Shown in pieces: positions 5,411 to 61,775 of a stretch of 64,000 nt of DNA. The notes under the pieces were generated by a model, which was not told the DNA's origin, did not search any database, and saw only the letters and a list, made by a program, of their open reading frames with translations. The DNA lies in contig OZ024759.1 in assembly GCA_964016885.1 (NCBI GenBank), forward strand, positions 15,376,001 to 15,440,000. The letters run 5' to 3'. The position numbers and the translations under genes are program-made. Source of the stretch: Eledone cirrhosa. Taxonomy: Eukaryota. Each line of letters starts with the position of its first letter. Positions within the stretch are counted from its first letter, which is position 1.

Positions 5411-5446
<36 letters not shown>

Positions 5447-5449
<3 letters not shown>

Positions 5450-9941: not shown

Positions 9942-9946
<5 letters not shown>
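7646..9946 (+). mobile_element. Retrozyme-like array, right arm: ~7.4 inverted copies of the same 310-bp monomer
   Basis: Reverse complement of the left-arm unit. Junction at 7643-7645 through AAT microhomology. Ends in (TA)n. Confidence 0.93.
7886..7928 (+). ncRNA. Minimal type I hammerhead ribozyme (also at 8196, 8506, 8816, 9126, 9436, 9746)
   Basis: GTAGTC-CTGATGA-ATTCT(aaca)AGAAT-GAAA-CGCG-TA-GATTAC. Intact core, GUA site, palindromic ACGCGT stem III, distal 16-bp stem ATTCTCGATAAAAGCA/TGCTTTTATCGAGAAT. Confidence 0.93.
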
Positions 9947-9991
<45 letters not shown>

Positions 9992-14799: not shown

Positions 14800-15010
14800 T
14801 TGATGTATGACATACCTCAACGGTCTTGATGGTTCAATTCCAGTATTACTGCTAATACTGGAATTGAACCATCAAGACAGTTGAGGTATGCCATTCATCA
14901 ATTCATGTATTTTATCTGACGAGGACGTACTGAAAAACAACAGTACCTTCGAAATATATATAATAAAACATATATTTTGATTATATGAATGTCTTCATTT
15001 ATTAATATTC
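14800..15010 (+). mobile_element. Family A fold-back element with HHR at 14910-14968
   Basis: Hairpin ~14811-14890, then TTTTAT-CTGACGA-GGACGTACTG..CAGTACCTTC-GAAA-TATATA-TA-ATAAAA. Confidence 0.75.
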
Positions 15011-15115
15011 TAAATAATATTAATAATTCCAGAAAACTTCATTGTAGAGTGCTTTTAATCTATTGTAAAACTATATTCATTGAGTAATCAATGAACCATA
15101 TTAATCTTGGGTTGG

Positions 15116-15298: not shown

Positions 15299-15363
15299 AC
15301 AGAAGCAGGGAAAAGCTGACATAAAATGATGATGATGATGATATATATATATATATATATATA

Positions 15364-15482
15364 GAAGTACTAACACAACAGTTAGTTCACCATACCGAGA
15401 ACAATTGTTTCACCTTATTCCTCAGCTGAGGGTTCCAATATGATGAAACATTTGTTCTCGGTATGGTGAACTAACTGTTGTG
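15364..15482. mobile_element. Fold-back element centred inside an HHR (same family as 25165-25245)
   Basis: Arms CACAACAGTTAGTTCACCATACCGAGAACAATTGTTTCA and its complement, with CTCAGCTGAG between them. Confidence 0.8.
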
Positions 15483-15667
15483 GAACTACTTCTACCAAAC
15501 CCTGTCCCATGGACTGGGTGCTCTACTACTATGGATATAACCCTCCAGTGTTCTACTATTATATATATACAAGAGATGTCAACATGTATGGACCTGCTTT
15601 TATCTAAAGAAAATGTTTTCCAATTCCACACCGACCGTCCCCTCAATCTATCTTATTTCTCATTGTT

Positions 15668-15703
15668 TCTTCTGATGAAGGACTAGCGTCCGAAATGTCA
15701 AGA
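15668..15703 (+). ncRNA. PLE-type hammerhead ribozyme
   Basis: TCTT-CTGATGA-A-GGAC(tagc)GTCC-GAAA-TGTC-AAGA. Confidence 0.75.
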
Positions 15704-15920
15704 CCCTCTTCCTGCTATATCAAGCGTTAACCTAATATATTCCTTCCATATACTGTACTGATTGTGTTGTTATTTCTGTTTACCTATGTAAACATATGTA
15801 TATATATACATATATGTATATATATACATTTCTCTAATACGACGAGTGTGTTTAACTCCAATGCACTCTAGTATTTTAATCTTATATGTATATATATACA
15901 TATATGTATATATATATATG

Positions 15921-25132: not shown

Positions 25133-25164
<32 letters not shown>

Positions 25165-25196
25165 GAAGTGATTACACAACAGTTAGTTCACCATAC

Positions 25197-25234
25197 CGAG
25201 AACAATTGTTTCACCTTAGCGGATCCTCAGCTCG
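25197..25234 (-). ncRNA. Hammerhead ribozyme
   Basis: Minus strand CGAG-CTGAGGA-TCC(gctaa)GGT-GAAA-CAATTG-TT-CTCG. Confidence 0.7.
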
Positions 25235-25279
25235 TAATGAACATGGTTATACGGAATACATATACATACACACACACAT

Positions 25280-25347
<68 letters not shown>

Positions 25348-26016
25348 AAACTTAAAATTGATTAATTTCAAAACGTAGTAACGAAAAGGTTAACATACCC
25401 TGTAGTTTTCATAGTAGTGAGGTAATGCATGATCTCTCTATTGTGTATGAGCTTATAAATGTTGAGTTGGTAAGGAATTGAAGGAATTAATATGAAACAG
25501 TTTCTGGTGCAAGTTATATGTGTAAATGTAATCTCATCGTTACTCTTTTTTTTTTAAATAATCCAAAAGAATAAGGGAATTATTAAAAAGGAAAATAAAT
25601 CTTATCATATAAGGAAATGTTTGAATAGAATTAAAAGAAAACTTTAGAAAAATTCCATCAGGTATTATGTGATGTATATAGGTTCGGCAGGGTACAACAC
25701 TGAAGGAAACATGAAGAGATAAGCTCTTATCAGATTATGTTATGGTTAGATGAAATGAAATGAAATTTAATAAAAATAATGGGAAAAAGCTATTGTTTAA
25801 TCTTTTTAAGTATTAGGTAGTGAAAATAAGTTCAATAATTAAAATGAAAGTCACCTAGTTCTATATGTAATGTGTCTGAAAACCATATCCCTAAAATATT
25901 GTAAATATATATATATATATATATATGTAGAAGTTCTATTTAAATTGTTGGGATACAACAAGCAAATATTTTTATAACTGATATAAAGCACTCAACATAT
26001 TATTGGAGTAAAAATA

Positions 26017-26379
26017 CGATATATTAACAAATGGAAACTATATTTATAAAACCAATATTTATTTCATTATACATGTTTCAAGGACACCTAGTTAAATTAT
26101 GGTGTGCTTTCATCAGATAAAATATAATATAGATCAGTTTTATAAATAAATATTGACATACCCTTAAAGAATGCGACCATTTCTGTTGTATACACTATCC
26201 GGGAGCTTCCAACAGAAATGGTCGCATTATTTAAGGGTATGTCAAGATTTATTTATAAAACTGATCTATATTATATTTTATCTGATGAAAGCACACCATA
26301 ATTTAACTTGGTGTCCTTGAAATATGTATAATGAAATAAATAGGGTTTTATAAATATAGTTTCCATTTGTTAATATATC

Positions 26380-26380
<1 letters not shown>
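26017..26380. mobile_element. Family A fold-back element, ~170-bp arms, two HHRs (26060-26124 minus; 26274-26338 plus)
   Basis: TATTTTAT-CTGATGA-AAGCACACCA(loop)TGGTGTCCTT-GAAA-TATGTA-TA-ATGAAATA and its inverted copy. Confidence 0.88.
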
Positions 26381-26423
<43 letters not shown>

Positions 26424-26624
26424 CGAAGGAAATGTGGTAAGGAACCAGGTGGACCATAACGCACCAAAGTACTCAATACTTGGGGTAGTAGAGTGGGTAA
26501 TAGGAACCAGTAAGACCCCGACGGCTGAGCTCAAGCCGTTTCGACGGCTAATTCTGGACTAAATCAATTTAGTCCAGAATTAGCCGTCGAAACGGCTTGA
26601 GCTCAGCCGTCGGGGTCTTACTGG

Positions 26625-26673
<49 letters not shown>

Positions 26674-27639: not shown

Positions 27640-27684
<45 letters not shown>

Positions 27685-27827
27685 TCAGGTTTGAGGTTCA
27701 CCACTGTATAGAGCTGGTCTATTCCGTATGGTCAATCGTAATGCAATAATATAGAGAGTACTCAACGTAAAGCAGTTCAACCGTCTTTGTTTTTGTGGGT
27801 GGTGGTGCTATTACGGAGTTAAATATT

Positions 27828-28643
27828 ATAATGAAATGACAGGAGGCTGGATTTGTGTAAATCCTTGAAAGGTTTATTATACTATGATCATTTCAATGAC
27901 CGGGTTCCGTATGAATCCGGTGATATCATCAGGTATTCGAAATATAATACGTGAATGTAATAGGTAAAATCCATGGGGCTGAAATTCGAGACCCAAGGGC
28001 GACCGCTATTCTGTTCCTTCAACCTCAGCCGGTCGCCCTGGAGTGACGTGGCTAAATTTTATAGTATGCTACTACCGGTCAGATGAACGAAAACAGAAAG
28101 GGATGGGAGCATAAGTTAACGTCGATCCCATGACACAAGGTAAAAGAAAGAAAGAAAGGAAGGAGAGAGAAAAAGGGGGAAGAAAGAAGAAGAGAAGCCA
28201 GGGTTAATGTCAGCTAAAAGAGGAAGGCAACTACTACTGGTCAGATATAGGCAAGCAAGAGGGGGAAGGAAGATAAGTCTGCGGGAGGAAGACAGGAGGA
28301 GGGGAGAAGAGAAGGAAGGGAAGAGAGAGGTAGAAAAGTAAGGGTTGATGGCTACAAGAAGGAAGATAGAAAGAAAGAGGAAGAAAGGTCGATATTAATG
28401 TCGATATTAATGTCAGACCACAGTCAAGCCAGGAGTGGCGACCGGCTGAGGTTGAAGGAACAGAATAGCGATCGCCCTTGGGTCTCGATTTTCAGCCCCA
28501 TGGATTTTACCTATTACATTCACGTATTATATTTCGAATACCTGATGATATCACCGGATTCATACGGAACCCTGTCATTGAAATGATCATAGTATATTAA
28601 ACCTTTCAAGGATTTACACAAATCCAGCCTCCTGTCATTTCAT

Positions 28644-28646
<3 letters not shown>
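27828..28646. mobile_element. Inverted-repeat element: 210-bp arms (27828-28037 / 28437-28646), purine-rich 400-bp spacer, HHR in each arm (27879-27936 minus; 28538-28595 plus)
   Basis: ATAC-CTGATGA-[long stem II, ACCGG/CCGGT in the left copy]-GAAA-TGATCA-TA-GTAT. Confidence 0.85.
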
Positions 28647-28689
<43 letters not shown>

Positions 28690-32227: not shown

Positions 32228-32904
32228 AACATATATATACATATTTGTGTGTATGTGTAAAATAGTCGCGAGAGAGTGAGAGTTTCTGTTTGTAGTGTGT
32301 TGTTTAAACACCGCCTATAATTCTCTAAACATGTAATGTAGTTAAATATACGTTCAATGCCTTGTATCTGTTTCGCTATATTTTATTTTATAGTATTTTA
32401 GCCATAATTTTTATCTCAGTTATTTCATCTTTCCAAATGAATAAACGGTTTAGTGGCAAAGAAAGTAATGAGTCTCAAGAAAAGTCCAAGAGGTAGTGAT
32501 TTGGAAAAATGAGATAGTGGAGGTTGTTTTTCTTATTCCCTTGTTACTGGTATTTTTATTTTGTTTAGCTCCAGGTCAACATTGATCGAACAGACAAACC
32601 TATTGATCAAATGAGTTTGAATCAAGCAGCTATTGTTTGATTTTTTTTTCAGCCATATTGAATGAGAAGGAGGTGCGATGAAGTAGTCGTTAGAATGTCG
32701 GATCGAATAGCTTGTTGTATGAGACCTGAGATTACTTCCTTTGAGGTCAACATTTGCTTTCTCGATAAATAAAGTCAACATTTGCCTAGGTTAATAAATA
32801 AAGTCAACCTTTTCCTAGCTTGGTAAATAAAGTAACAGTCCACTACTTGTCTCGACCTTTTCATTCTCTTGCAAGACATTTTATTTCAGGTTGCTCCGTT
32901 TTAT

Positions 32905-34543
32905 CTGAGTTATAATGTGACTCAAAACGTCGGCTTTATCATACACTGTGTCAAGCTGTATCGGCTTGTATTTCATTAAACCACGAGCAGCTTCTCTGAG
33001 TTATAATGTGACTCGAAAGGTCGGCTTTATCATACACTGTGTCAAGCTGTATCGGCTTGTATTTCATTAAACCACGAGCAGCTTCTCTGAGTTATAATGT
33101 GACTCGAAAGGTCGGCTTTATCATACACTGTGTCAAGCTGTATCGGCTTGTATTTCATTAAACCACGAGCAGCTTCTCTGAGTTATAATGTGACTCAAAA
33201 GGTCGGCTTTATCATATACTGTGTCAAGCTGTATCGGCTTGGATTTCATTAAACAACGAGCAGCTTCTCTGAGTTATAATGTGACTCAAAAGGTCGGCTT
33301 TATCATACACTGTGTCAAGCTGTATCGGCTTGTATTTCATTAAACCATGAGCAGCTTCTCTGAGTTATAATGTGACTCGAAAGGTCGGCTTTATCATACA
33401 CTGTGTCAAGCTGTATCGGCTTGTATTTCATTAAACCACGAGCAGCTTCTCTGAGTTATAATGTGACTCAAAAGGTCGGCTTTATCATACACTGTGTCAA
33501 GCTGTATCGGCTTGGATTTCATTAAACAACGAGCAGCTTCTCTGAGTTATAATGTGACTCAAAAGGTCGGCTTTATCATACACTGTGTCAAGCTGTATCG
33601 GCTTGTATTTCATTAAACCACGAGCAGCTTCTCTGAGTTATAATGTGACTCGAAATGTCGGCTTTATCATACACTGTGTCAAGCTGTATCGGCTTGTATT
33701 TCATTAAACCACGAGCAGCTTCTCTGAGTTATAATGTGACTTAAAAGGTCGGCTTTATCATACACTGTGTCAAGCTGTATCGGCTTGGATTTCATTAAAC
33801 AACGAGCAGCTTCTCTGAGTTATAATGTGACTCAAAAGGTCGGCTTTATCATACACTGTGTCAAGCTGTATCGGCTTGGATTTCATTAAACCATGAGCAG
33901 CTTCTCTATGTTATAATGTGACTCAAAAGGTCGGCTTTATCATACACTGTGTCAAGCTGTATCGGCTTGGATTTCATTAAACCACGAGCAGCTTCTCTGA
34001 GTTATAATGTGACTCAAAAGGTCGGCTTTATCATACACTGTGTCAAGCTGTATCGGCTTGGATTTCATTAAACCATGAGCAGCTTCTCTATGTTATAATG
34101 TGACTCAAAAGGTCGGCTTTATCATACACTGTGTCAAGCTGTATCGGCTTGTATTTCATTAAACCACGAGCAGCTTCTCTGAGTTATAATGTGACTCGAA
34201 AGGTCGGCTTTATCATACACTGTGTCAAGCTGTATCGGCTTGTATTTCATTAAACCACGAGCAGCTTCTCTGAGTTATAATGTGACTCAAAAGGTCGGCT
34301 TTATCATACACTGTGTCAAGCTGTATCGGCTTGGATTTCATTAAACAACGAGCAGCTTCTCTGAGTTATAATGTGACTCAAAAGGTCGGCTTTATCATAC
34401 ACTGTGTCAAGCTGTATCGGCTTGGATTTCATTAAACCATGATCAGCTTCTCTATGTTATAATTTGACTCAAAGGGTCGGCTTTATCATACACTGTGTCA
34501 AGCTGTATCGGCTTGTATTTCATTAAACCACGAGCAGCTTCTC
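32905..34543. repeat. 91-bp tandem satellite, 18 copies
   Basis: CTGAGTTATAATGTGACTCRAAAGGTCGGCTTTATC... at 32905, 32996, 33087 etc. Few variant positions. Confidence 0.97.
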
Positions 34544-34627
34544 TTATAGATCAAACGACATAAAAATAGTCATCGGAAGCGACAAATGTCCAGCACAAAC
34601 TCTTTAAAATGTTATTTTATATATCCA

Positions 34628-34662
34628 CTCTCCTGATGACGGGCTTATGTCCGAAAAGTCGT
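34628..34662 (+). ncRNA. Hammerhead-like core, weak stem I
   Basis: CTGATGA-C-GGGC(ttat)GTCC-GAAA-AGTC. Confidence 0.5.
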
Positions 34663-34995
34663 ATCACACACACACCCACTCTCACCAAGCGTGAAACTAG
34701 TAATACCTTGTAACATTTACTCCTGCGTTTATTTTAATTTTTTTGTTTTGTTTTCTGTTATTTCGAACTATATAAATATATATATATACACACATATATA
34801 CACACACATATATATATATATATATACATATACATACAAACACACATATATATATATACATATATATATATATACATATACATATACATATATATATATA
34901 CATATACATATATACATATATATATACATATACATATATACATATATATATACATATACATGCAAACATATATATATATACATATACATGCAAAC

Positions 34996-35257: not shown

Positions 35258-37879
35258 GATGGCTGCAAACTCTGCAAAGAGTATTGTAATCGCTTGTCAG
35301 ATTCAGATGTGGGACGCTCGAGTATGGCTTTTCAAGACTGCTAGAGACTTGCACTCCTTCACACACTGACGACAACTATGGAGAGATACACCTGGGCATT
35401 GCTTACGCACATCACGTTTGATCTTTTCGTGCTCTATGCGTCTGTCCTCAAAAAGATTATGGACCCCACCATTCACCATTCCACGCCAAGTCTCTCTTTC
35501 AAGAGCTATCTCCCAGTCAGCCATCATCAAGCCAGTTTTTTTCAATGAGTCCTTTTCACAATCCTTGAATCGCAGCTTTGAATTGTGAGGTGGTCTATTA
35601 GCCTCACAAAGCTCGCCATACAAGAGTTGTTTTGGGGATTGGATCATCCTCCATTTTGCAGAGGTGTCCGGTCCATCGCAAACGCTGTTGGTGGATGATA
35701 CTCTCAATGCTCAGACACTCCCTTCTCTCAAGGACCTCAACATCACTCAAATGCATCTGCCACTTGATACCGAGCATCTTTCTGAGAAACTGCTGGTGAA
35801 ACCGTTCCAATCTGTGGATATGCCGTTTGTAGGCAACCCATGTCTCATATGCATACAGCAAAGCTGACAGTACACATGCAGCATACACTCTCACCTTGGT
35901 CCTCATTGTGATTAATCGCCTGTACCAAAGACGGTCGTTGAGCCTTCCAAATGACTCACTTGCCTTACTAACACGTAGACCACCTTCTGCATCCAGAGAG
36001 CAGGTCACACTCAGAGTAGTACCCAAATACACAAATGTGTCAGCAGCCTTCAGCTTTTGACCGTATACGTGTATGGAGGGTTCATTGAAAACTTTATCCG
36101 GAGCAGGTTGGTACATCACGACAGTCTTCTTCAGACTGATTGTCAGTCCCAAATCACTGCACGCATTGGAAAAAGAATCTATAAGATGTTGCATGTCACT
36201 CTGGGAGTGTGCAAAGAGATCACAATCATCTGCATATAAAAATTATCTGATCAAGGTACTCAGTACCTTAGTGTTGGCAGTGAGACGCCTAAGGTTAAAC
36301 AGCCTGCCGGCAGTGCGATATCTGAGATATATACCGTGTTGACAATCCTTGAAGGCCATAAAGAACACCATCGCGAAATACAAGGCAAACAAAGTTGGTG
36401 AAGGTACATCACCCTGATTGACACTCTTTTCAACCGAGATTGGCTCAGACAGTTTACCTCCAGCATTCACCCATGCCTGCATGTCATCGAGGAAGTGTTT
36501 CAGAATGTTCACAAACTTTTCAGGACAGCCCAATCTCTCCAAAATAACTCACAAAGCCTTCCCATTAACGGTGTCAAATGCCTTGCTCAATGCATTTCTC
36601 TTGAAGTTGTTTGGCCGAGAAGATCATGTCAACAGTACCTCTGTCATTCTTAAATCCACATTGGGACTCAGGAAGTACCTCAACAGCAATGTGCTGTATC
36701 AATCTGTCCAACAATATCCTGCACAAGATCTTCCCAGCCACAGATAGCAGTGACATACCTCTGTAGTTGCCACAGTCATCTTTGGCTCCCTTTTCTTTGT
36801 AAAGTACCTCCATCAATGAATCTTTCCAATCTTGTGGCACATCTTCATTCCCAACAATCACAAAGAGATCAGTGAGGCGGTTTAAGAAGTTATCACCAGC
36901 ACACTTGAAAATCTCGGCACTCAGTCCATCCATTCCAGGTGACTTGCCGCTGTGTAATTTGGCAATGGCCTTCGCCACCTCATCAAATGAAGGAGGATCA
37001 GCCATTGCCAGCTTTGTAGTTCTGGATTGAATCGACCGGGTTGAACTCATCATCAATTTCTGATGGTCTGTTGAGAATCTCATCAAAGGGGTCATGCCAG
37101 CAGATCAGGATTTCCTTCAGATCTCTGAGCAATTCCTTGCCATCCCCGGAGCGAAGTGGTGATATTTGTAAACCGGTCGGACAATACACCTCCCTGAGCA
37201 GACTGTATAGGAGCTTTGTATCATGCCTATCTGAGGCCTTCTGGATTTCATCAGCCTTTTGGTTCCACCAGGTATCCTGCATGGCTCTCAATCGATGTTG
37301 CACACGTGCCTTGATCTGCCTGAAGGTCCGGTCACTCACGTCAGAACGTGTCTCACACAACAATGACGTCAGCACTTTTTATTTCTCTTCAAGCAAGGTC
37401 TGGATCACTGGATCATTTTCATCGAACTAGTCTTTATGCTTTCTATTGGTATGACCCCAAACTCCAGCACTAACATCATAGACGGTTTTCTTCAAAGATT
37501 CCCAAGTGTTTTCACATTCCATGGACTCAAGGGACCTCGACAGCTCAGCTCTGCCTTTCTGTTTACAGACGAGCCACGTTTAGTTGTCTTGGAAGTGCAA
37601 ACTTCTTCCCCCTTACTTTGGGCTTCAAAACAAATTGAAACTTGGCGCGCACCAGACGATGATCAGTCCAACATTCCGCGCCTCGCAATACAAGAACCAA
37701 CGTAATATCCCTGATATTAGGTTTTCTCGTTAAAACAAAGTCATTGTATTTCATCCAGCAGGGTGTCGAAATATCACCCTCCTCGCTAAGCTTGCTTGGT
37801 GGGGTTGCCGGTTTTGTCACCGACAACCCGACCATGTACTGGGTTACATGTTACCAGTAGCACTCGAGAGCAACTTGAC
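35256..37879 (-). pseudogene. RTE-clade LINE, frameshifted, most of the AP endonuclease deleted but 5' UTR retained
   Basis: ORF pieces: EN end (AECWTDHRLV), KSPGMDG, NYRGMSLLS, PESQCGF, QGD, FLYADD, YLG, RLRWTGH, C-terminal CxxC..H finger. 3' end in (TA)n. Confidence 0.93.
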
Positions 37880-40649: not shown

Positions 40650-40652
<3 letters not shown>

Positions 40653-40890
40653 CAATATATTAATAAATGGAAACTATATTTATAAAACCATAATTATTTA
40701 ATTATATATATTTCAAGGGCAACCAAGGTAGATTGTGGTGCGCTTTCATCAGATAAAATACACATTTGTTTTATAAATATATAGTTATCACTATTCAATT
40801 TCAACTGTTGAGGTTGTCTATTTTATGGGTATGTCAATATTTATTTGTAAAACAAATCTGTATTTTATCTGATGAAAGCGCACCATAATC
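40650..40890. mobile_element. Family A fold-back with HHR at 40695-40760 (minus) and a truncated plus-strand copy from 40861
   Basis: TATTTTATCTGATGAAAGCGCACCA on both strands. Confidence 0.8.
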
Positions 40891-40984
40891 ATCATAACCA
40901 TCAACGTTAAGTTATCATCATCATCATCATCATCGACACCAAGTTATCATCATTCGACATTAATATCATAACGATCAACATCAA

Positions 40985-42762
40985 GTTATCATCACCATCA
41001 CCACTACCATCACCGGTACCACCACAATCACCAACACCACCATCAACAACACTACAATCGCCAACACCACCAACACCAGCACCACCAACACCACCATCAC
41101 CAACACCACAATCACCAACACCACCAACACCACCACCACCAACACCACAATCACCAACACCACCATCACCACAATCACCAATACTACAATCATCAACACC
41201 ACCACAATCACAAACACCACCATCACCAACACCACCATCACCAACACCACCATCATCATCTCCACCACCACCATCGCCAGATCGACCAACATAAACAACA
41301 CCACTATCATCAGCACCACCATCACCATCACTACTACCATCACCAACACCACCAACACCACCACCACTACCGTCACCATCACCAACGCCACCACCATCAT
41401 CAACACCACCAATACCAGCACCACCAACACGACTACCATTACCATCACCAACACCACCACTATCATCAACAAAATCCCTATCAACACCACCAACACTACC
41501 ATCACCACTATCACCAACACCACTATCACCACCACTAACACCACAATCACCACCACCTCCACTATCACCACCACCAACACCAACTCCACTATCACCACCA
41601 CCAACACTACCACTATCACCAACACCCCCATCACCACCACCAACACCACTATCACCACCACCAACACCATCACCAACACCACCAACACCACCACTATCAC
41701 TACCACCATCATCAACACCACCAACATCAACACTATCACCACCACCAACACCACCACCAACACCACTATCACCAACACCACCAAAATCAACACTACCTCC
41801 ATCACCAACACCACTATCACCACCACCAACACCAACACCACCACCAACACCACTATCACCAACACCACCACCACCAACACAACCACCATCACCAACACCA
41901 CCACCAACACCACCACTATCACTACCACCATCACCAACACCACCAACATCAACACTATCACTACCTCCATCACCAACACCACTATCACCACCACCAACAC
42001 CACCACTATCACTACCACCATCACCAACACCACTATCACCACCACCAACACCATCACCAACACCCCCAACACCACCACTATCACTACCACCATCACCAAC
42101 ACCACTATCACCACCACCAACACCATCACCAACACCACCAACACCACCACTATCACTACCACCATCACCAACACCACTATCACCACCACCAACACCATCA
42201 CCAACACCACCAACACCACCACTATCACTACCACCATCACCAACACCACTATCACCACCACCAACACCAACACCACCAACACCACCACTATCACTACCTC
42301 CATCACCAACACCACTATCACCACCACCAACACCAAACCACTATCACCAACACCACCAACACAACCACCATCACCAACACCACTATCACTACCACCATCA
42401 CCTACACCACCAACAACACCACTATCACTACCTCCATCACCAACACCACTATCACCACCACCAACACCACCACTATCACTACCACCATCACCAACACCAC
42501 CAACATCAACACTATCACTACCTCCATCACCAACACCACTATCACCACTACCAACACCACCACCAACAACAACACCACTATCACTACCACCATCACCAAC
42601 ACCACCAACATCAACACTATCACTACCTCCATCACCAACACTACTATCACCACCACCAACACCACCACCAACACCACCATCACCACCACCACCAACAACA
42701 CCACTATCACCACCACCAACAACAGCACTACCACCATCTCGACCATCATCAACAACAATAAC
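40985..42762. repeat. Degenerate (ACC/AAC/ATC/ACT)n trinucleotide satellite
   Basis: Direct reading; gives V/L/I/M ORFs on minus and a Thr/Asn/Ile frame on plus. Confidence 0.9.
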
Positions 42763-42975
42763 AAGTTTACATTTACATGTTCTCTCTTCAGGCTCGAGTT
42801 TCTTTGTTATTCCTACGAAATAATATCAATATTATGTTAAAGGATATATTTTCTTAACATATTCACTGTTAGCCGTTGTTGTAGTTATTCTATTGAATGT
42901 TTATAGATGTAGTTTTTATATAATTTCTGATTTCGTTTTTCGTTTTTTTTCTTCTTACAACTTCTTTTCTAATGT

Positions 42976-43078: not shown

Positions 43079-43278
43079 GTATATATATATACATATATAT
43101 ATCGAAGGAAATGTGGTAAGGAACCAGGTGCACCATAACGCACCAAAGTACTCAATACTTTGGGTAGTAGAGTGGGTAATAAGAACGAGTAGGACGGCTA
43201 ATTCTGGACTCAGAATTCTGAGTCCAGAATTAGCCGTCGAAACGGCTTGAGCTCAGCCGTCGGGGTCCTACTCGTTCC

Positions 43279-43309
<31 letters not shown>

Positions 43310-49138: not shown

Positions 49139-49183
<45 letters not shown>

Positions 49184-49184
49184 G

Positions 49185-49345
49185 ATATTAATAAATGGAA
49201 ACTATATTTATAAAACCATATTTATTTCATTATACATATTTCAGGGATACCACATTAAATTATGGTATGCCTTCATCAGAAAAAATACAATATATAACAG
49301 TTTTACAAATAGGTTTGACGTACCCTTTAAAATACAACCATTACT
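49185..49345 (-). mobile_element. Family A element with HHR at 49223-49287
   Basis: Minus strand TATTTTTT-CTGATGA-AGGCATACCA(loop)TGGTATCCCT-GAAA-TATGTA-TA-ATGAAATA. Confidence 0.8.
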
Positions 49346-49367
49346 TTTGGAGGCTGTATGCTACGTT

Positions 49368-49759: not shown

Positions 49760-50975
49760 CTGAGTATTTTTGTATGCAAATGACTGCGATCTTTTTGTAC
49801 ACTTCTTGCACACTCACAAATTGACATGCAGCATATTATGAGGTCTTTTTCTGAAGCTTGCAGCGCTTTGGTTCTCACAATAAGCTTGGAAAAGAATTTT
49901 GTGATTTACCAGCCAGCATCTCGGAAAGAATACACTACACCAAGTGTGTACGTGTATGGAAAGAGGCTGAAAGTGTGTTTACCTTGGGAGTACGTTGAAC
50001 AATTCATGCACTCTTGCTGATGAGATCGCCTTAAGTATCAAGAAAGCCAGTGATGCTTTTGGATGGTTGCATGAAGGTTTATGGTCCTGGCGAGGTATCA
50101 TTGTGACCAAGGTAAAAGTGTATCTGATTTTTGTCGTTTCCTCTTTGCTTTATGCTTTTGAAATGTGGGTCACCTATAGAAAGCACCTCAAAGAACTGTA
50201 GAGGTTTCACCAACAATCTCTTCGTAAGATACTTTGGGGTGCGATGTAAAATGTTCGTCAGTGATTTGGAAGCTCTCGAACGGAGCTGGTGTATGACTAT
50301 AGAGAGCATTATCTTTCGGCACCGGTTGATGTGGTCCGGTCACGTACTCCGGCTGTATGATGATCGTATTCCAAAGCAACTTCTCTACGGAGAACTGTGT
50401 GAAGGAAGCGACCGCCACACTAACCAAAAATGTGGTACGGGATGTGTCAGTGGCATCTTGGCTTGCGCTGAGATTTCATCTAACGAATGGGAGAAAATGG
50501 CTGAGGAGCGTGTGAAGTGGAGACGTTTGATCAAGTCAGGATGTGAACACTTTGAAACTCGTCGAAGAGAACACCTAACACTGAAAAGGAAGGTGAGAAA
50601 TAGGGACTGTTCCGAACTGCCTGCTGTTGAGCATCATCGGGTTTGCCGGCACTGTGGTTGAGTCTTCCTGAATAAAGCTGGTTTGATTAGACACGAACGT
50701 GTCATATCAGTAGATCTCATGTAGATTTATGATTTGAAAAGGTGTAAGGAATGTGGCAAAGAATTTGCAGGCATGGTAGGTCTTAAAACACATATGAGAA
50801 CACACAGCCAGAACCAAGCAGAGGAAAGTCCCAGACGAGCCTACAGTTGCCATGTATGTGTCAGAGGTGCAAGTCTTTGACTGGTTCAAAGAGCCACATT
50901 CGTGCCTCACTTTTCTTAGCATTTTATCAGGCGATGGCAATGCTCGAACACACGTTTGCGGCCTTCATGTGTTAG
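49760..50975 (+). pseudogene. 5'-truncated decayed RTE LINE (RT C-terminal half plus C2H2 zinc fingers)
   Basis: FLYANDCDL, MQHIMRSFSEACSALVLTISLEK, RLMWSGHVLRLYDDRIPKQLLYGEL, CKECGKEFAGMVGLKTHMRTH. Frameshifts and stops. Confidence 0.9.
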
Positions 50976-52321: not shown

Positions 52322-52445
<124 letters not shown>

Positions 52446-52461
52446 AAATATATAAATATAT

Positions 52462-52494
<33 letters not shown>

Positions 52495-52497
52495 AAT

Positions 52498-52546
<49 letters not shown>

Positions 52547-52557
52547 AGTATATATAT

Positions 52558-52724
<167 letters not shown>

Positions 52725-52727
52725 AAT

Positions 52728-52798
<71 letters not shown>

Positions 52799-52972
52799 AA
52801 TATATATATATATAAATATATATATATATATTTATATATATATATATATATATATAAATATATATATATATATTTATATATATATATATAAATATATATA
52901 TATATAAATATATATATTTATATATCAATATTTATATATATAAATATATATATATATATAAATATATATATT

Positions 52973-53054
<82 letters not shown>

Positions 53055-53089
53055 AATATATATATATATAAATATATATATATATAAAT

Positions 53090-53163
<74 letters not shown>

Positions 53164-53175
53164 TTATATATATAA

Positions 53176-53206
<31 letters not shown>

Positions 53207-53267
53207 AATAATTCAGAATTAGCCGTCGAAACGGCTTGAGCTCAGCCGTCGGGGTCCTACTCGTTCC

Positions 53268-53331
<64 letters not shown>

Positions 53332-53344
53332 AATATATATATAA

Positions 53345-53382
<38 letters not shown>

Positions 53383-53388
<6 letters not shown>

Positions 53389-54357
53389 TTAGTTATACTA
53401 TTTATGGTTATGTAAATACAAAGCCTTAAGCAGTTGTAAGTATTTTACACACACCCTAAATAGTGGTAGGCAGTAATGTATTACTACCTTATTACCAGTA
53501 AGTTAAGTAGCTCAATGTAAAAACATCAGATGATTTACAGAGCAGTTATATGAAATATAAGAATCAAAGAACTGTTCAAAACATTATTGTGCTTACAGCT
53601 GTTTCCTCCAAATCGAGGTTTGGATTCTTCGGAGCAATTTATTAATGCATGGACAGTTATATGACCTCCTTTTCAGCCGAGAGACATACCAAATACATAT
53701 TCAAACATTGATACATATTCAAACATTGTGGGTCAACATTCATTACAGAATTTAGAGTGGCAGTACACACTTCGAGATTACATTTATATTAATAGGTACA
53801 ATCAAAAATCGAAGATATAGGTTAAAGTACAACATGAAGATAAGTGGTTATATAGTGCAAATGTTATATGTGTGGCACGCATGTGCGTCTTGTTTATATA
53901 GTGTGGCAGAGAGATATGTGTGGTAGAGGCACTTAGGTAGGTAAATAAGAGTGTTAGGTTGGTAGGTCTGGTGGCAAAGTCTTTATATGATTGATATAGT
54001 CTGTGTGTGGAGAAATATTATAAGCATTAAAGATAGTGCAAGCATTAAAAGTGTTATAAGTATTGGAGATGCACAGCGCAGGGATGTCAAGTAATTCATG
54101 TACTTCGGCATTTTCATGGTCAAGGGAGTGTATATTTCGATTATATGCCTTTCACATAATCCACGACAATCCAGTAAGAGATCGTAGTCTGGTGTTCTTT
54201 AGTTCGATACAGGGGGATGTTACGTTTCGAGAAACGCCATTGAATACCGGAAGTGTGTGTGTGGCTAAGGGGAGTTAATGCATGCGGGGAGGTAACTCTG
54301 GGGTTTCTATATCTAGCCATTAAAATGTGTCCCAATATAGACCCTAAATTCTATGGT
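53383..54357 (-). repeat. 3' pseudo-LTR
   Basis: Near-identical to 57555-58529 (one G/A difference noticed at ~53811/57983). Confidence 0.95.
53590..53636 (-). ncRNA. Hammerhead ribozyme in the 3' pLTR (CCGAAGA core variant)
   Basis: TGCT-CCGAAGA-A-TCCAAA(cctcga)TTTGGA-G-GAAA-CAGCTG-TA-AGCA. Confidence 0.82.
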
Positions 54358-55052
54358 GAGGTGCACCTTCCAAGAGAGACTTTTAAAGCATAAAGTGTAC
54401 TAACTATAGAGTAGTTTATATTATTATTAAGGTGGATTAACCCATCTTAAGGTGCTACAAATGGAAATTATAGATGATGAGCGAGGATTCTAAAATGATC
54501 TCTGTGGTTGTAGTCTGCTCATATGACCAGGCGCGGTGATTGCAGGATTGCTTCAGGACCCAATGATCTCTGGTAAGATCTGGGTCATCGCTTGCTACAT
54601 TGGATGTCGAAAGATAATCGTCCCCAGGCAGGCCAAGGTCAATCCGCAGTCCTCGCGACCCCTCTCTGACCGTCAGATCATCCATATACGTACAACCCGC
54701 ACGGCAGTTGCATTGCATTCACTCACTGCGCTCAGCAGCCCGGTCCTACTGGTCAACAGCGCTACTCGATTAAATCATTTTACATCTGTCTAAGGAAGGT
54801 GTTTCCTCTGCCCAACAACATCCAACCGATCAATTCATGCTCAAAATTACCCTTAGAGCGGTGTAGTGCCATCAAGTGGGTGGATGTTGTCACACCTGCC
54901 GTAGAGGTATAAATGGGTATTTTCCCTGCGAAGGGTTCCAGAGGGATGCCGTTGTTTGTGTTATAATGGATCAGCTAGTGTTGGGTATGTAGTATAGGGT
55001 GTGTTTCTGGTGTTTGATGCTAGATGTGGTGTTAGGTTCCAGTCCGACATTG

Positions 55053-57512
55053 CTATATATAGGGCTTAAAGTTTTGGAAGGAATGTCTGAGGCGGTGCTG
55101 GCAAGTTGCAAACACCTCAGATTTTTTGTTAAGTAGGTTACGGTTGGAGAAGATAATATTGTGTGTCTCTAGAATACAGAGGTTACAGAATTTATTAGGT
55201 GGTTTGTACGAGGTCGCGCTGCCTATCACTTCCCATTTGAGTGTGTATGGTTTATTTTTAGATTTTAGATAGTGTATGTAGCTAGAAAGTGAGGTGGAGT
55301 TGGCTAGGCTGTGCTTTTTGAACGAGTGGATGTGCGAGTTATATCTGATTTTGAAGCAGTTAGAAGTGGAGCCTACATAGGTTTCTGAAGAGTTATTAGT
55401 CGTGACTGTGCATGAGTATATGACATCCTTGGTTAGGCATTTTTTATCTAAAGGGCAGGTTCTATTAGCTCTACAGTTACAATTATTCTGTGCGTTAGTC
55501 CGCTGGTTATAATGCAATGCGGAAGTCTGTGTGGTGGATATAGGATTTTGGGTGTTCGGGTTGGCAACCCTGGTGTTATTACTTATACTAGTGTTATTTC
55601 TATTGTTACTGCCGTTGCTATTGTTGCTTGCTACAGTGGTATTTAGAGGGTTTGCATCCTGTTGTGATTTTGTTTGTTGGAAGTAAGAACTAATTTTACT
55701 ATTATTGCTGCTAGCTATGTGGTATGCTAAGTTAGGCGTCGTAGAGTATGAGATTTTAATGGTGTTTTTGTTTAAGAGGTTGTGGTACTTGTGTCCTAGA
55801 GGGAAGTTTTTATCTAGTAGTGAGAAGAAAGCCCTAGGTATGTTGGTGGAGACATTTAGGTTGAAAGGAGGGTTGAAAAATGTATTATTTCTTCTTCTAT
55901 TTTTGTTTTTAGTGTTTGGTGTGTTGCTTCCTCCTAAGGCCTCACAGTAGTTTCCATGGTAATGGTTACTTCCTGTGGCACCCTCCGCTTTGGTGTACTT
56001 GTGGTTGCTATTCCTATTATTAGACTTCCTCATGGACATGTTGTGCGAGATTATGTTGTAGCTATGTGTTTTCTTAGGTAGGAACTCAATTTCTATATTA
56101 TGGCCGGAGCTAGCTAATGCTTGATTGTAATATTGTGAGTTTTTGCTAAATATGTTTGCGTCATAGGACAGACTAGAGATTCTATTGGACACCCCCTTAG
56201 AGATAGAGTTTAATATTGATCTAGGGTGATTAGACTTGGTATCTACGTAAATAAGTTTCTCATTAGGCTTATGGAAAGGTGTATATATTTTTGAGTCTAG
56301 GTATAGTGTGGCGTCTAGGAAGTTAACATTTTTAGTGTTTTTGTCCATGGTGATACTAAGGTTAAAGTTTTTGAATGTCTTATGCAGTTGTTTTCTAGTT
56401 CTTTCTATATTAAATTTTTTATATTCTATGAGTAGAAGTGCATCATCGCGGTACAAACCACCGTTGAGGTAAGGGAGGTCTTTATGGATTTCATTGAGGA
56501 GGTATAGGCCGACCAAATCAGTGACCTGCGCCGAGTCACTAGATCCCATGGTTATGTCGAAGTTGTTGTGCGTATCCTTGCGTGTCCATAGTTGGTCCTC
56601 GAAGGTGATTATGGTTTTACGGGCCGCAAGGATGACATCAACCTGGGCTCTAGTCAGGTCGCTATTGGTCATGGCCATGATAAGTGCCTTATTTAATAGG
56701 ATAGGGGAAATAGAGGTGTAGTATGAATTGATATCAAATTGAATAAATTTTTTGTTTTTATTATTCTTGATATCCTTAAACCATTCAATTACTTCACCCG
56801 TATTTCCCCATTGTTTAAGGTGTATCTTGTGTTTAATTTGTGGGATGATTTTATCCAAAATCTTCTTGCTGATAATACCAATGTCGGACTTGGAAGGGCA
56901 GATAAGTCTTATCGTGGGGTTGCTGATGAAGTTCTCCTTATGGTCCTTCAGAGAGAATCTAGGGGGGTTCGGAGTGAAAGGTTGTGTATGCCTCTGTAGT
57001 CCTAGTTTAGACACTATATTATAACCCTCTACATTAATATCTTCTAAGTTTTTCAAGGTGGTTTTTTTGTAGCTTTTATGTAGTTCATTATATATAAACT
57101 TTCTATAAGTAATATAATCTAGGCTGTATATGTTATTAGTTTTATCTGCGTGTACAATAATTTTATTACTAGTTTTGAATCCACTAATAGAAGTGTTAAG
57201 TTTGTTTAAGAAGGTGTTGCTTCTAATATGGTGCTTATTGTATTTAATGTTCTTAACTAGTTTAACTAGGTCATTTTCAAAGGAGTTAAGTAGAGTGTTA
57301 TGAGGGGGGCTTTTAAAGGTTTTAAAGCCGAAGGAGTCAAAATTGTTAGTATTATTCAAGTTGTTAGATTTGTTTCTATCATAATGGAATGTCCTCCATC
57401 TCACTCTATTGATAAATGAATTTACACTGTTGATCAGCAATTTCTCATATGTATTCCTGGATGGTATTGGTATGTTCTTGGTTGACATGGGGAGTTGGTC
57501 TTTGATTAGCAT
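55053..57512 (-). CDS. Penelope-like reverse transcriptase + C-terminal GIY-YIG endonuclease, 819 aa
   Basis: HADKTNN, LKDHK..PTIRLI, FDINSYY, FDITMGSSDSAQ, LYRDDAL, NFLDATL. CNC..CPL..KCL linker. VIYSCTV..TYVG, FKIRYNSH, CNLCILE, LLNKKSE..CQH. Confidence 0.96.
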   Translation of the reverse strand: MLIKDQLPMSTKNIPIPSRNTYEKLLINSVNSFINRVRWRTFHYDRNKSNNLNNTNNFDSFGFKTFKSPPHNTLLNSFENDLVKLVKNIKYNKHHIRSNTFLNKLNTSISGFKTSNKIIVHADKTNNIYSLDYITYRKFIYNELHKSYKKTTLKNLEDINVEGYNIVSKLGLQRHTQPFTPNPPRFSLKDHKENFISNPTIRLICPSKSDIGIISKKILDKIIPQIKHKIHLKQWGNTGEVIEWFKDIKNNKNKKFIQFDINSYYTSISPILLNKALIMAMTNSDLTRAQVDVILAARKTIITFEDQLWTRKDTHNNFDITMGSSDSAQVTDLVGLYLLNEIHKDLPYLNGGLYRDDALLLIEYKKFNIERTRKQLHKTFKNFNLSITMDKNTKNVNFLDATLYLDSKIYTPFHKPNEKLIYVDTKSNHPRSILNSISKGVSNRISSLSYDANIFSKNSQYYNQALASSGHNIEIEFLPKKTHSYNIISHNMSMRKSNNRNSNHKYTKAEGATGSNHYHGNYCEALGGSNTPNTKNKNRRRNNTFFNPPFNLNVSTNIPRAFFSLLDKNFPLGHKYHNLLNKNTIKISYSTTPNLAYHIASSNNSKISSYFQQTKSQQDANPLNTTVASNNSNGSNNRNNTSISNNTRVANPNTQNPISTTQTSALHYNQRTNAQNNCNCRANRTCPLDKKCLTKDVIYSCTVTTNNSSETYVGSTSNCFKIRYNSHIHSFKKHSLANSTSLSSYIHYLKSKNKPYTLKWEVIGSATSYKPPNKFCNLCILETHNIIFSNRNLLNKKSEVFATCQHRLRHSFQNFKPYI

Positions 57513-57554
57513 ATTGGCAATATTATATGTCAGCTCAACGATATGGAGCAGTTA

Positions 57555-58529
57555 ATAGTATTAGTTATACTATTTATGGTTATGTAAATACAAAGCCTTA
57601 AGCAGTTGTAAGTATTTTACACACACCCTAAATAGTGGTAGGCAGTAATGTATTACTACCTTATTACCAGTAAGTTAAGTAGCTCAATGTAAAAACATCA
57701 GATGATTTACAGAGCAGTTATATGAAATATAAGAATCAAAGAACTGTTCAAAACATTATTGTGCTTACAGCTGTTTCCTCCAAATCGAGGTTTGGATTCT
57801 TCGGAGCAATTTATTAATGCATGGACAGTTATATGACCTCCTTTTCAGCCGAGAGACATACCAAATACATATTCAAACATTGATACATATTCAAACATTG
57901 TGGGTCAACATTCATTACAGAATTTAGAGTGGCAGTACACACTTCGAGATTACATTTATATTAATAGGTACAATCAAAAATCAAAGATATAGGTTAAAGT
58001 ACAACATGAAGATAAGTGGTTATATAGTGCAAATGTTATATGTGTGGCACGCATGTGCGTCTTGTTTATATAGTGTGGCAGAGAGATATGTGTGGTAGAG
58101 GCACTTAGGTAGGTAAATAAGAGTGTTAGGTTGGTAGGTCTGGTGGCAAAGTCTTTATATGATTGATATAGTCTGTGTGTGGAGAAATATTATAAGCATT
58201 AAAGATAGTGCAAGCATTAAAAGTGTTATAAGTATTGGAGATGCACAGCGCAGGGATGTCAAGTAATTCATGTACTTCGGCATTTTCATGGTCAAGGGAG
58301 TGTATATTTCGATTATATGCCTTTCACATAATCCACGACAATCCAGTAAGAGATCGTAGTCTGGTGTTCTTTAGTTCGATACAGGGGGATGTTACGTTTC
58401 GAGAAACGCCATTGAATACCGGAAGTGTGTGTGTGGCTAAGGGGAGTTAATGCATGCGGGGAGGTAACTCTGGGGTTTCTATATCTAGCCATTAAAATGT
58501 GTCCCAATATAGACCCTAAATTCTATGGT
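57555..58529 (-). repeat. 5' pseudo-LTR
   Basis: Direct repeat of 53383-54357. Confidence 0.95.
57762..57808 (-). ncRNA. Hammerhead ribozyme in the 5' pLTR, ~250 nt upstream of the ORF start
   Basis: Identical to 53590-53636. Confidence 0.82.
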
Positions 58530-58580
58530 TATATATATATATATATATATAAATATATATAAATATATATATATATAAAT

Positions 58581-58631
<51 letters not shown>

Positions 58632-58864
58632 AATATATATATATATAAATATATATATATATAAATATATATATATATAAATATATATATATATAAATAT
58701 ATATATATAAATATATATATATACATATATAAATAAATATACATATATATATATATACATATATAAATAAATATACATATATATATATACATATATAAAT
58801 AAATATACATATATATATATATACATATATAAATAAATATTTATATATATATAATTATTAATGA

Positions 58865-59622
58865 TACTATTTATGGTTATGTATATACTAAAACTGTTTA
58901 TAGTTATATATATTTTAAACCCTAAACAGTGAAGGTCAGTAATTTATTACTACCTTGTTACCAGTAAGATAAATAGCTCAATGTAATGACATCAGTTGTT
59001 CTACAGAGCAGTTATATAGAATTCACAAGAATCAAAACTATGTTCAAAGCATTTATTCACTTACAATTGTTTCATCCAAACCAAGGCTTGGAGTCTTCGA
59101 AGCATTTTTCAATGTTTGTACACATAATTGACATCCTTTCCAACGCAAGAGACATAAAGATACATATATATATATTGATGTACAGTGGAGTGACATATAT
59201 TATATTATATTATTTCTGTATAGCAATTCAAATTCAAAATCAAAATCACATTAAAACAAAATCAAAACAAAATTAAAATACAATCGGCAGTTAACATAGA
59301 TAATGCGAGAGGATAGTTTGTTAGTCAGATGTAGTAGTTAGTTTAGTTATTGTATGCGTTAGTTACACGTGGGGCATGCATGTGTGTCTCATGTATATAT
59401 GATTATTGTGCGGCAGGGTGTTACATGTAATAGAAGCACTTTAAGCGGGTAAGTAAGTACATCAATATATATATATGTATCTGTATGTCTCTTGCGTTGG
59501 AAATCAGGTCGATTATGTGTACAAACATTGAAAAATGTTCCGAAGACTCGAAGCCTAGGTGTGGATGAAAAAATTGTAAGTGAATAAATGCTTTGAACAT
59601 AGCTTTGATTCTTGTGCATTCC
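58865..59622. mobile_element. Diverged pLTR relative forming a fold-back (arms ~59020-59180 / ~59458-59622) with two degenerate HHRs
   Basis: Collinear similarity to the pLTR end (TACTATTTATGGTTATGTA..TTACCAGTAAG..TACAGAGCAGTTATA). Cores TCGAAGA (minus) and CCGAAGA (plus). Confidence 0.8.
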
Positions 59623-60299
59623 ATATATATATATATATATAAATAAATATACATATATATAAATACGTATATAAATAAATATACATATATATATATACAT
59701 ATATAAATAAATATACATATATATATACATATATAAATAAATATACATATATATATACATATATAAATAAATATACATATATATATACATATATAAATAA
59801 ATATACATATATATATACATATATAAATAAATATACATATATATATATATACATATATAAATAAATATACATATATATATATACATATATAAATAAATAT
59901 ACATATATATATACATATATAAATAAATATACATATATATATATATACATATATACATATATATATATACATATATAAATAAATATACATATATATATAT
60001 ATACATATATAAATAAATATACATATATATATATACATATATAAATAAATATACATATATATATATACATATATATATATATAAATAAATACATATATAT
60101 ATACATATATATATACATATATATATACATATATATATATATACATATATATATACATATATATATACATATATAAATACATATATCCATATATATATAT
60201 ATATACATACATATATACATACACATATATATATATACCTTAGACGATCGACTTTCGTCAAATCGGACCTACGAAACAATGTTTCCGTCGGTCTTTCCA

Positions 60300-61121: not shown

Positions 61122-61168
<47 letters not shown>

Positions 61169-61356
61169 CGAAGGAAATGTGGTAAGGAACCAGGTGGACC
61201 ATAACGCACCAAAGTACTCAATACTTAGGGTAGTAGAGTGGGTAATAGGAACAAGTAAGACCCCGACGGCTGAGCTCAAGCCGTTTCGACGGCTAATTCT
61301 GGACTAGAATTAGCCGTCGAAACGGCTTGAGCTCAGCCGTTGGGGTCTTACTTGTT

Positions 61357-61389
<33 letters not shown>

Positions 61390-61775
61390 GTATATATAAA
61401 TAACGCAGGAAGTGTGGTAATGTACCAGATTGACCATAACGCACCAGAGTACTCAATACTTAGGCCAGTAGTGTGGGTAATATGAAAATGGTCACGGTAG
61501 AGCTCAAGCCGTCCAGAAATAGCCGTCGACTCGGCATGAGCTCTAACGTCGTGTTTTGACCATTTTCCTATATGTATTCGTTAGCCTCATATCAAGACGG
61601 TAATAAGTTACCGGCGGCATATTTGTATACTTACATAAAAAGATCGTACTTTTGCATGGAGATCTGATGATGTTACTTGGAGACTTTAAGGATATAACCA
61701 TTACATAACTCTGCCATCGAAATATATATAATGCAATAAAACAATTATGTATAAGTAATCCAGTCTTAAGAACAT

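What the first reader, a model, noticed from the sequence alone, without database searches (positions are those of the whole stretch)
53383..58529. Young intact Penelope-like element with ribozyme-bearing pLTRs: candidate driver of the whole system
Seen: an uninterrupted 819-aa RT/GIY-YIG ORF, near-identical pLTRs, (TA)n target, and a sense-strand HHR in each pLTR 4172 nt apart, so double cleavage would release a unit-length RNA. The MGSSDSAQ RT motif, CNC..CPL..CL linker and terminal CxxC / CQH motifs suggest the (TA)n-associated Hydra clade of PLEs. That clade call is from recalled motifs and needs a tree. Inference: this type of enzyme mobilises the HHR elements nearby, which share the (TA)n target.
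Basis: partly seen in the sequence, partly recalled or inferred. Interest (0 to 1): 0.75.

Follow-up and report, generated by a model that had tools for sequence, protein, structure and literature searches.

The report
Young ribozyme-bearing Penelope retrotransposon, two-ended insertion
This is an intact, recently copied Penelope-type jumping gene whose copies sit in TA repeats and, when double-armed, almost always start at two different fixed sites, one per arm; it likely copies one looped or uncut RNA from both DNA strands, but nothing shows that it moves the other ribozyme repeats nearby.

Summary
Window 53383-58529 (minus strand) has an 819-aa ORF, two 975-nt pLTRs differing at one base, a 4172-nt unit and (TA)n flanks. 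The protein has the Hydra-clade marks of Penelope-like elements. The family is young: 2,103 exact hits to a 25-mer, and the 30 best loci all keep the ORF. The hammerhead is non-canonical (U4C core, mismatch at the base of stem II) and Rfam misses it. Copies do not end at the ribozyme cut. They end at two fixed sites 47 and 211 nt downstream (A, B). In 77 of 78 head-to-head insertions one arm ends at A and the other at B. Repeats within one insertion are 7-10 times closer than between insertions. About 99% of arms run through the cut site, which fits a circular or uncut template; a small local pile-up of 5' ends at the cut is suggestive only. 'Driver of the whole system' is not supported: neighbouring hammerhead elements share the A/B signature but not the sequence, and several other intact families exist, one with 16 times more hits. 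No RNA data. The circle model and retrozyme mobilisation are already in print.

The parts
53383..58529 (-). Whole insertion: 1.23 units of a 4172-nt Penelope-like element; 3' end at site B, 5' end truncated directly onto (TA)n
55053..57512 (-). 819-aa ORF: PLE-type RT (DKT, MGSSD, YRDD), CxCX5C linker, C-terminal GIY-YIG-type nuclease with CxxC and CxH; two Asn-rich inserts relative to homologues
   Evidence: colinear with a Pfam RVT_1 + GIY-YIG protein by profile alignment, P 96.7%, E 3e-10
57555..58529 (-). 5' pseudo-LTR (3' end of a truncated upstream unit), 975 nt
53383..54357 (-). 3' pseudo-LTR, 975 nt, one mismatch to the 5' copy
57761..57809 (-). Type I hammerhead-like motif, U4C core, palindromic loop III; predicted cut 57766/57765
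   Evidence: sequence; alignment and pair counts; cleavage not tested
53589..53637 (-). Second hammerhead-like motif; predicted cut 53594/53593
53383..53546 (-). 164-nt tail between site A (53547; also 57719) and site B (53383; also 57555), the two 3' ends used by family copies
   Evidence: 16 A and 14 B among the 30 best loci; loose ends at 53547, 57555 and 57719 in a public run
52322..53385 (.). (TA)n-rich target tract at the 3' junction; it also holds a 57-nt arm of another family at 53214-53270
58530..58853 (.). (TA)n-rich tract at the 5' junction
58856..59627 (.). Separate older insertion of a sister subfamily (72-76% identical): minus arm ending at B, plus arm ending at A, same U4C core in most copies of that subfamily

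Best explanation
This is a young, intact Hydra-type Penelope-like retrotransposon whose copies sit in (TA)n and end at two fixed sites, A and B, and whose enzyme likely nicks both target strands and primes two cDNAs, one from each site, on a template that is likely a religated circle or an uncut multimer. Shown: the two ends, their one-per-arm pairing, head-to-head arms, TA junctions, more-than-unit arms with free 5' ends, and near-identity of all repeats within one insertion. Inferred: a protein dimer holds one RNA at A and B; short TA/AT matches at each site help priming; both polymerases move toward the RNA 5' end and their products are joined head to head; the pLTR is simply the part copied twice. 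The weak U4C hammerhead likely cuts only some transcripts or is religated, so it sets the unit length without setting the insert ends.
For: Two 3' ends only: 16 A and 14 B of 30; TA run within 40 nt at 53 of 55 A ends and 46 of 46 B ends. Pairing: 24 of 24 minus/plus pairs among the first 100 listed hits; 77 of 78 over all held loci after one script miscall was corrected (p about 3e-22 against free choice); 6 more A+B. No tail-to-tail pair in that list. Arms reach up to 1.75 units, one insertion holds two whole units in tandem, and 5' ends are spread with no fixed start. pLTR differences: 22/18,598 within tandem repeats, 44/25,271 between arms, 10,120/875,111 between insertions (50 insertions). 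One variant is in both pLTRs of the window copy and in none of its six closest relatives. In two insertions both arms start exactly at the predicted cut, and one full unit starts there. A Poseidon PLE nicks and extends both strands from two internal start sites in vitro and is modelled as a dimer (PMC11167929).
Against: No RNA evidence of expression, cleavage or circles. The core and stem II deviate from the consensus; U4C lowers activity in vitro (PMC3088659); covariation in 8 aligned copies does not beat shuffles. The pile-up at the cut (16 arms at the exact base) is smaller than one at +6 (14 of 30 examined from 71 hits), so stalling or join-site bias can explain it; over all six windows it is not significant (p 0.10). 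One real B+B insertion exists (L355). In the Poseidon system hammerhead mutants inserted normally and no RNA ends were found at the cut. Gene conversion or uncut read-through from tandem parents could also keep repeats alike.
Confidence: 0.6

Rival explanations
1. Same element and same two start sites, but the hammerhead is practically dead and the template is a linear read-through transcript of tandem or inverted parents; homogeneity comes from young age and conversion.
For: Non-canonical core; about 99% of arms pass the cut; the larger breakpoint peak lies at +6; ribozyme dispensable in vitro for Poseidon.
Against: The core, stems and a palindromic loop III are kept in a subfamily 76% identical, with the loop changing AGCT to AATT. 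Both arms stop at the exact cut in some insertions here and in about half of 18 cut-site truncations of the 784-aa family. 5' ends show no fixed promoter boundary.
Confidence: 0.25
2. One reading: both ribozymes cut efficiently, the linear 4172-nt RNA is the working template, and this family mobilises the neighbouring hammerhead elements.
For: Cut sites are exactly one unit apart. The 310-nt tandem retrozyme is also young (100% identical dispersed arrays) and shows A+B arms in 8 of 8 resolved arrays, 5 of 13 unresolved.
Against: A linear unit has A and B near its 5' end and would give 47- or 211-nt products or need precise jumps; full-length arms do not stop at the upstream cut in 0 of the 30 best loci (one such copy found by a targeted search). 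Retrozyme versus element: best E 4.7; its sites lie at +131 and about +163 with a tail near 35 nt, unlike +47/+211. Other intact families are equal candidates.
Confidence: 0.1
3. Head-to-head arms arise by fold-back self-priming on one cDNA or on an antisense template, and the tail by nuclease resolution, not by two priming events.
For: Proposed for rotifer PLEs (PMC3846280) and for the tail (PMC8557442); some central junctions carry short overlaps or palindromes.
Against: The two arms usually start at unrelated positions, up to kilobases apart, and both outer ends join (TA)n with occasional reiterated terminal 9-10-mers (15 of 55 A ends, 2 of 46 B ends), as expected of primed ends.
Confidence: 0.05

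Closest known systems
Hydra clade of PLEs (Craig et al. 2021, PMC8557442), including Hydra-1_Obim from Octopus bimaculoides
   Same: C-terminal nuclease, DKT, CxCX5C linker, CxxC and CxH around the conserved E and N, no CxxC inside the GIY-YIG motif, (TA)n target, type I hammerhead in the pLTR.
   Different: Unit 4172 nt (described families are generally under 3 kb); RWR for RWK; U4C core where canonical hammerheads were reported as universal; 164-nt tail against 30-40 nt; a different family from Hydra-1_Obim by eye.
Poseidon element PAc of Anolis carolinensis (Frangieh et al. 2024, PMC11167929)
   Same: Two internal RT start sites defining a tail, AT-rich target, both strands cut and extended, hammerhead upstream of the start sites.
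   Different: Start sites there lie inside the ORF and showed no strand preference in vitro or homology to the target; here they lie 207 and 43 nt upstream of the ATG, carry short TA/AT matches and pair strictly one per arm.
Circular-template model of PLE replication (Cervera and De la Pena 2014, PMC4209133)
   Same: Palindromic loop III suited to dimeric cleavage, weak ribozyme, more-than-unit copies.
   Different: That paper offered the model without in vivo evidence; here genomic counts bear on it but do not prove it.
Non-LTR retrozymes as non-autonomous PLE partners (PMC7229834; bioRxiv 10.64898/2026.07.22.740005)
   Same: A 310-nt tandem retrozyme in this window shows the same TA target and A/B arms.
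   Different: In the preprint retrozymes match the pLTR of their partner; no such match exists to this element.

Membership tests
EN+ Penelope-like element | Single ORF with PLE-type RT and C-terminal GIY-YIG nuclease | tested here: met
   No direct Pfam or PDB hit. Profile of 117 sequences aligns colinearly with an RVT_1 + GIY-YIG protein, E 3e-10; two homologues hit RVT_1 (below cut-off) and GIY-YIG (above cut-off).
EN+ Penelope-like element | Partial tandem forming pLTRs, inverted 5'-truncated partner, tail at one end | tested here: met
Hydra clade | DKT instead of DKG | tested here: met
   residue 123; 118 of 120 homologues
Hydra clade | CxCX5C linker instead of CX2-5CxxC | tested here: met
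   residue 678; no CX2-5CxxC in the window protein
Hydra clade | CCHH motif absent; CxxC and CxH flank the conserved E and N | tested here: met
   No CxxC between VIY and YVG, unlike the DKG-type protein; CNLC and CQH read from the alignment. My regex for this had the wrong spacing and is not used.
Hydra clade | RWK motif | tested here: inconclusive
   RVRWR in the aligned column where most homologues have RMRWK
Hydra clade | Groups with Hydra references in an RT tree | tested here: inconclusive
   Quick tree, 29 rows: window inside a 25-row DKT/YRDD group, SH-aLRT 100, apart from 4 outgroup ORFs of this genome. Published references were not in the tree; rows P0016, P0009, P0047/P0059 resemble Hydra-1_Amil, Hydra-1_Ajap and Penelope-1_NV by eye only. 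Eight partial ORFs were left out.
Hydra clade | Insertion into (TA)n | tested here: met
   99 of 101 ends
Hydra clade (descriptive, not defining) | Canonical CUGANGA hammerhead; length generally under 3 kb | tested here: not met
   CCGAAGA core in 64 of 65 motifs (one truncated); unit 4172 nt. Hence filed as a variant.
Type I hammerhead ribozyme | Three stems around the conserved core | tested here: inconclusive
   91% of cells paired, against 28-50% when slid, but not above shuffles; no Rfam hit; 5 of the 8 rows were found by a pattern covering the core
Type I hammerhead ribozyme | Self-cleavage after NUH | not testable with these tools
   Only indirect breakpoint counts
Neptune / Penelope-Poseidon / Naiad | DKG or DKA, CCHH nuclease, CX2-5CxxC linker or N-terminal nuclease | tested here: not met
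Autonomous partner of the neighbouring retrozyme | pLTR homologous to the retrozyme unit | tested here: not met
   best E 4.7; no hit in the window-wide search apart from the sister fragment

The most novel reading that the evidence does not exclude
Hydra-type PLEs insert as a dimer that primes both target strands from two obligate sites on one ribozyme-made circular RNA, which alone explains pLTRs, inverted arms and the one-sided tail; a subclade in this genome does so with divergent hammerhead cores (U4C, U4A, U3-A8) that standard searches miss, and the rare arms stopping at the cut are a genomic record of cleavage in the germ line.
Probability: 0.35. Interest if true: 0.7.

Novelty: new variant of a known kind. 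Interest (0 to 1): 0.45.

Why it matters
The PLE transposition cycle is still unsolved. This family is young, intact and has thousands of copies, so it gives counts that turn a qualitative remark in print (tail 'often at one end') into a near-strict rule, and it names exact RNA sites for an in vitro test. It also shows that canonical hammerhead searches undercount ribozymes in Hydra-type elements. The element class, the circle model and PLE mobilisation of retrozymes are already published, which limits the surprise.

Tried and rejected
Rfam found no hammerhead at either threshold. Pfam and PDB sequence searches gave no informative hit for the window protein. The structure prediction had not returned after eleven polls (job), so no fold evidence is used. 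No RNA holder was listed; the four runs laid are contigs of unknown type and say nothing on expression. Metagenome scan found no confirmed relative. Earlier findings: none. I first read the 16-arm peak at the cut as strong proof of cleavage; added control windows showed a larger peak at +6, so it was downgraded. Position +1 and several other positions were not measured, and two windows were scaled from 30 of 71 and 30 of 48 hits. Two short hammerhead elements first looked like pLTRs of DKG-type PLEs but are TA-flanked insertions in their 3' regions. No autonomous partner of the 310-nt retrozyme was found among 80 loci; only best-scoring candidates are returned, so this is not absence. The careful tree did not finish. 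Paper searches returned no paper counting A/B pairing or 5' ends at the cut; the library lacks most subscription journals and older Penelope papers, and bioRxiv supplements were not seen.

Full report
Observation. The element spans 53383-58529 on the minus strand. The ORF runs from Met 57512 to the stop at 55053 and gives 819 aa. The two repeats (57555-58529, 53383-54357) are 975 nt, differ at one base and lie 4172 nt apart. Both ends abut TA-rich tracts. A hammerhead-shaped motif lies in each repeat, with the predicted cut at 57766/57765 and 53594/53593. Its core is CCGAAGA (U4C) and stem II closes on A.G, so neither a CUGANGA scan nor Rfam finds it.

Identity. The genome is 3.0 Gb. An octopod host is my inference from its make-up and one Argonauta homologue, not a tool result. 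Pfam and PDB sequence searches do not recognise the protein. It has 304 homologues at E 1e-10 or better among 8,000 scored. Their profile aligns end to end with a protein of this genome that hits RVT_1 and GIY-YIG. Against section 11 of Craig et al. (PMC8557442) it has DKT, CxCX5C, CxxC and CxH, lacks the CxxC of the CCHH motif, and has RWR for RWK. A quick tree puts it in a 25-row DKT/YRDD group (SH-aLRT 100) apart from four outgroup ORFs. Published references were compared by eye only. An octopus Hydra family is already listed there; this is a different one.

Youth. A 25-mer across the cut has 2,103 exact hits and 0 for the reversed control. The 30 best DNA matches, the window included, all keep the 819-aa ORF, and 80 of 81 scored protein matches have no stop. 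These are best-scoring sets, so they overstate intactness. The closest copies are 99.8-99.9% identical. Across 29 ORFs there are 46 distinct silent and 34 distinct replacement changes, which suggests several selected source copies.

Ends. Copies do not end at the ribozyme cut. They end at A (+47; window 53547/57719) or B (+211; 53383/57555): 16 and 14 of 30. A TA run follows 53 of 55 A ends and 46 of 46 B ends; a terminal 9-10-mer is reiterated at 15 and 2 of them. Many insertions are head to head with both 3' ends outward. Among the first 100 listed hits, all 24 minus/plus pairs have one A and one B arm. Over all held loci the script scored 76 AB, 1 AA and 1 BB; the AA is a miscall and the BB is real, giving 77 of 78. 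Six more were AB. A one-sided 30-40-nt tail is known qualitatively (PMC3846280 passages; PMC8557442 passages). In vitro, a Poseidon PLE extends both strands from two internal sites (PMC11167929, parts 1-2 of 4). I infer two priming events, one per site, on one complex. The window copy shows only a B arm; a partner arm is absent or hidden in the TA tract.

Template. Arms often exceed one unit and start anywhere upstream. Repeats inside an insertion differ at 0.12% (tandem) and 0.17% (inverted), against 1.16% between insertions. The window copy carries one loop variant in both pLTRs that its six closest relatives lack; of 10 other loci examined from 24 hits, nine are old diverged copies and one young copy has it in one arm only. 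So the pLTR is regenerated from one template each cycle. A circle explains this most simply and was proposed in 2014 (PMC4209133, parts 1-2 of 4). An uncut multimer or conversion is not excluded.

Does the ribozyme cut? For: the core and stems persist in a sister subfamily 76% identical, with the loop III palindrome changed from AGCT to AATT. Sixteen arms begin at the exact cut against 0-3 at positions -2, -1, +2, +3, +4. In two insertions both arms begin there, and one full unit does. In the 784-aa family, 18 of 30 examined from 952 hits are truncated at the cut against 17 of 30 from 540 at +6 to +8, and about half of the 18 have the partner arm starting at or within 2 nt of it. Against: three-base windows hold 3, 9, 20 (cut), 4, about 43 and about 11 truncations, so the +6 peak is larger and the overall test is not significant. 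Covariation does not beat shuffles. U4C lowers activity in vitro though a viroid tolerates it (PMC3088659 passages and section 8). Either way about 99% of arms read through the site. I put occasional cleavage at about 60%.

Driver claim. Searching the window with the element finds only the older sister insertion at 58856-59627. The 310-nt retrozyme at 5439-9947 is young and dispersed and has A+B arms in 8 of 8 resolved arrays, 5 unresolved, but no similarity to this element and different site spacing. Eleven short arms in six places of the window are the 3' end of another intact family (784 aa) with 34,168 hits. Further long ORFs of 713, 714 and 719 aa (Hydra-type) and 938 and 1096 aa (DKG-type) exist. 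PLE mobilisation of retrozymes is already proposed (PMC7229834 passages; bioRxiv 10.64898/2026.07.22.740005 parts 1 and 3 of 5). The enzyme type fits; this family is one candidate among several.

Verdict. Real, young, Hydra-type by protein (about 90%), and a variant in its RNA parts. The new content is the near-strict A/B pairing, the long tail and the divergent hammerhead cores; searches showed no paper counting these. Interest 0.45.

Noticed in passing
window 2358-2553, 26417-26631, 43096-43281, 53214-53270, 61162-61361, 61397-61543; L306-L308: 3' fragments of another intact Hydra-type family (784 aa, tandem unit about 3540 nt) with a U3-A8 hammerhead core and A+B arms; 34,168 hits to a 21-nt pattern.
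   Followed up: partly
L270, L324, L325: 713-aa Hydra-type family with a hammerhead-like motif whose core reads CAGAAGA (U4A); it falls in the same 10-row subclade as the window protein.
   Followed up: partly
window 5439-9947: 310-nt type I hammerhead retrozyme as head-to-head arrays of about 7+7 identical units; many 100% identical arrays elsewhere, arms starting at scattered unit positions, as rolling-circle copying would give.
   Followed up: partly
window 25925-26381 (also 40650-40900, 49180-49350); L221-L245: Palindromic hammerhead mini-element with an A arm and a B arm whose central junction is about the same in most of 25 loci, so the whole palindrome seems to be copied as a unit.
   Followed up: partly
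window 27680-28650, 430-510, 14800-15110, 15360-15800, 25160-25260, 34545-34770: Further short TA-flanked hammerhead-core elements of unrelated sequence; no partner ORF identified.
   Followed up: partly
A ends of family copies, e.g. L003, L017, L038: The last 9 nt are repeated two to four times before the TA tract, like repeated re-priming by a telomerase-related RT.
   Followed up: partly
window ORF, about residues 490-535 and 615-675: Asn-rich inserts absent from most homologues; similar inserts were reported in rotifer PLEs.
   Followed up: no
L309, L311: Long DKG-type PLE ORFs of 938 and 1096 aa in the same genome.
   Followed up: partly
window 35300-37400 and 50100-50660: Broken LINE-like RT fragments; two pieces hit RVT_1.
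   Followed up: no
window 32904-34544 and 40900-42840: A 91-nt tandem array of 18 copies directly upstream of a hammerhead-core motif at 34633, and a long (CAC)n-like low-complexity tract.
   Followed up: no
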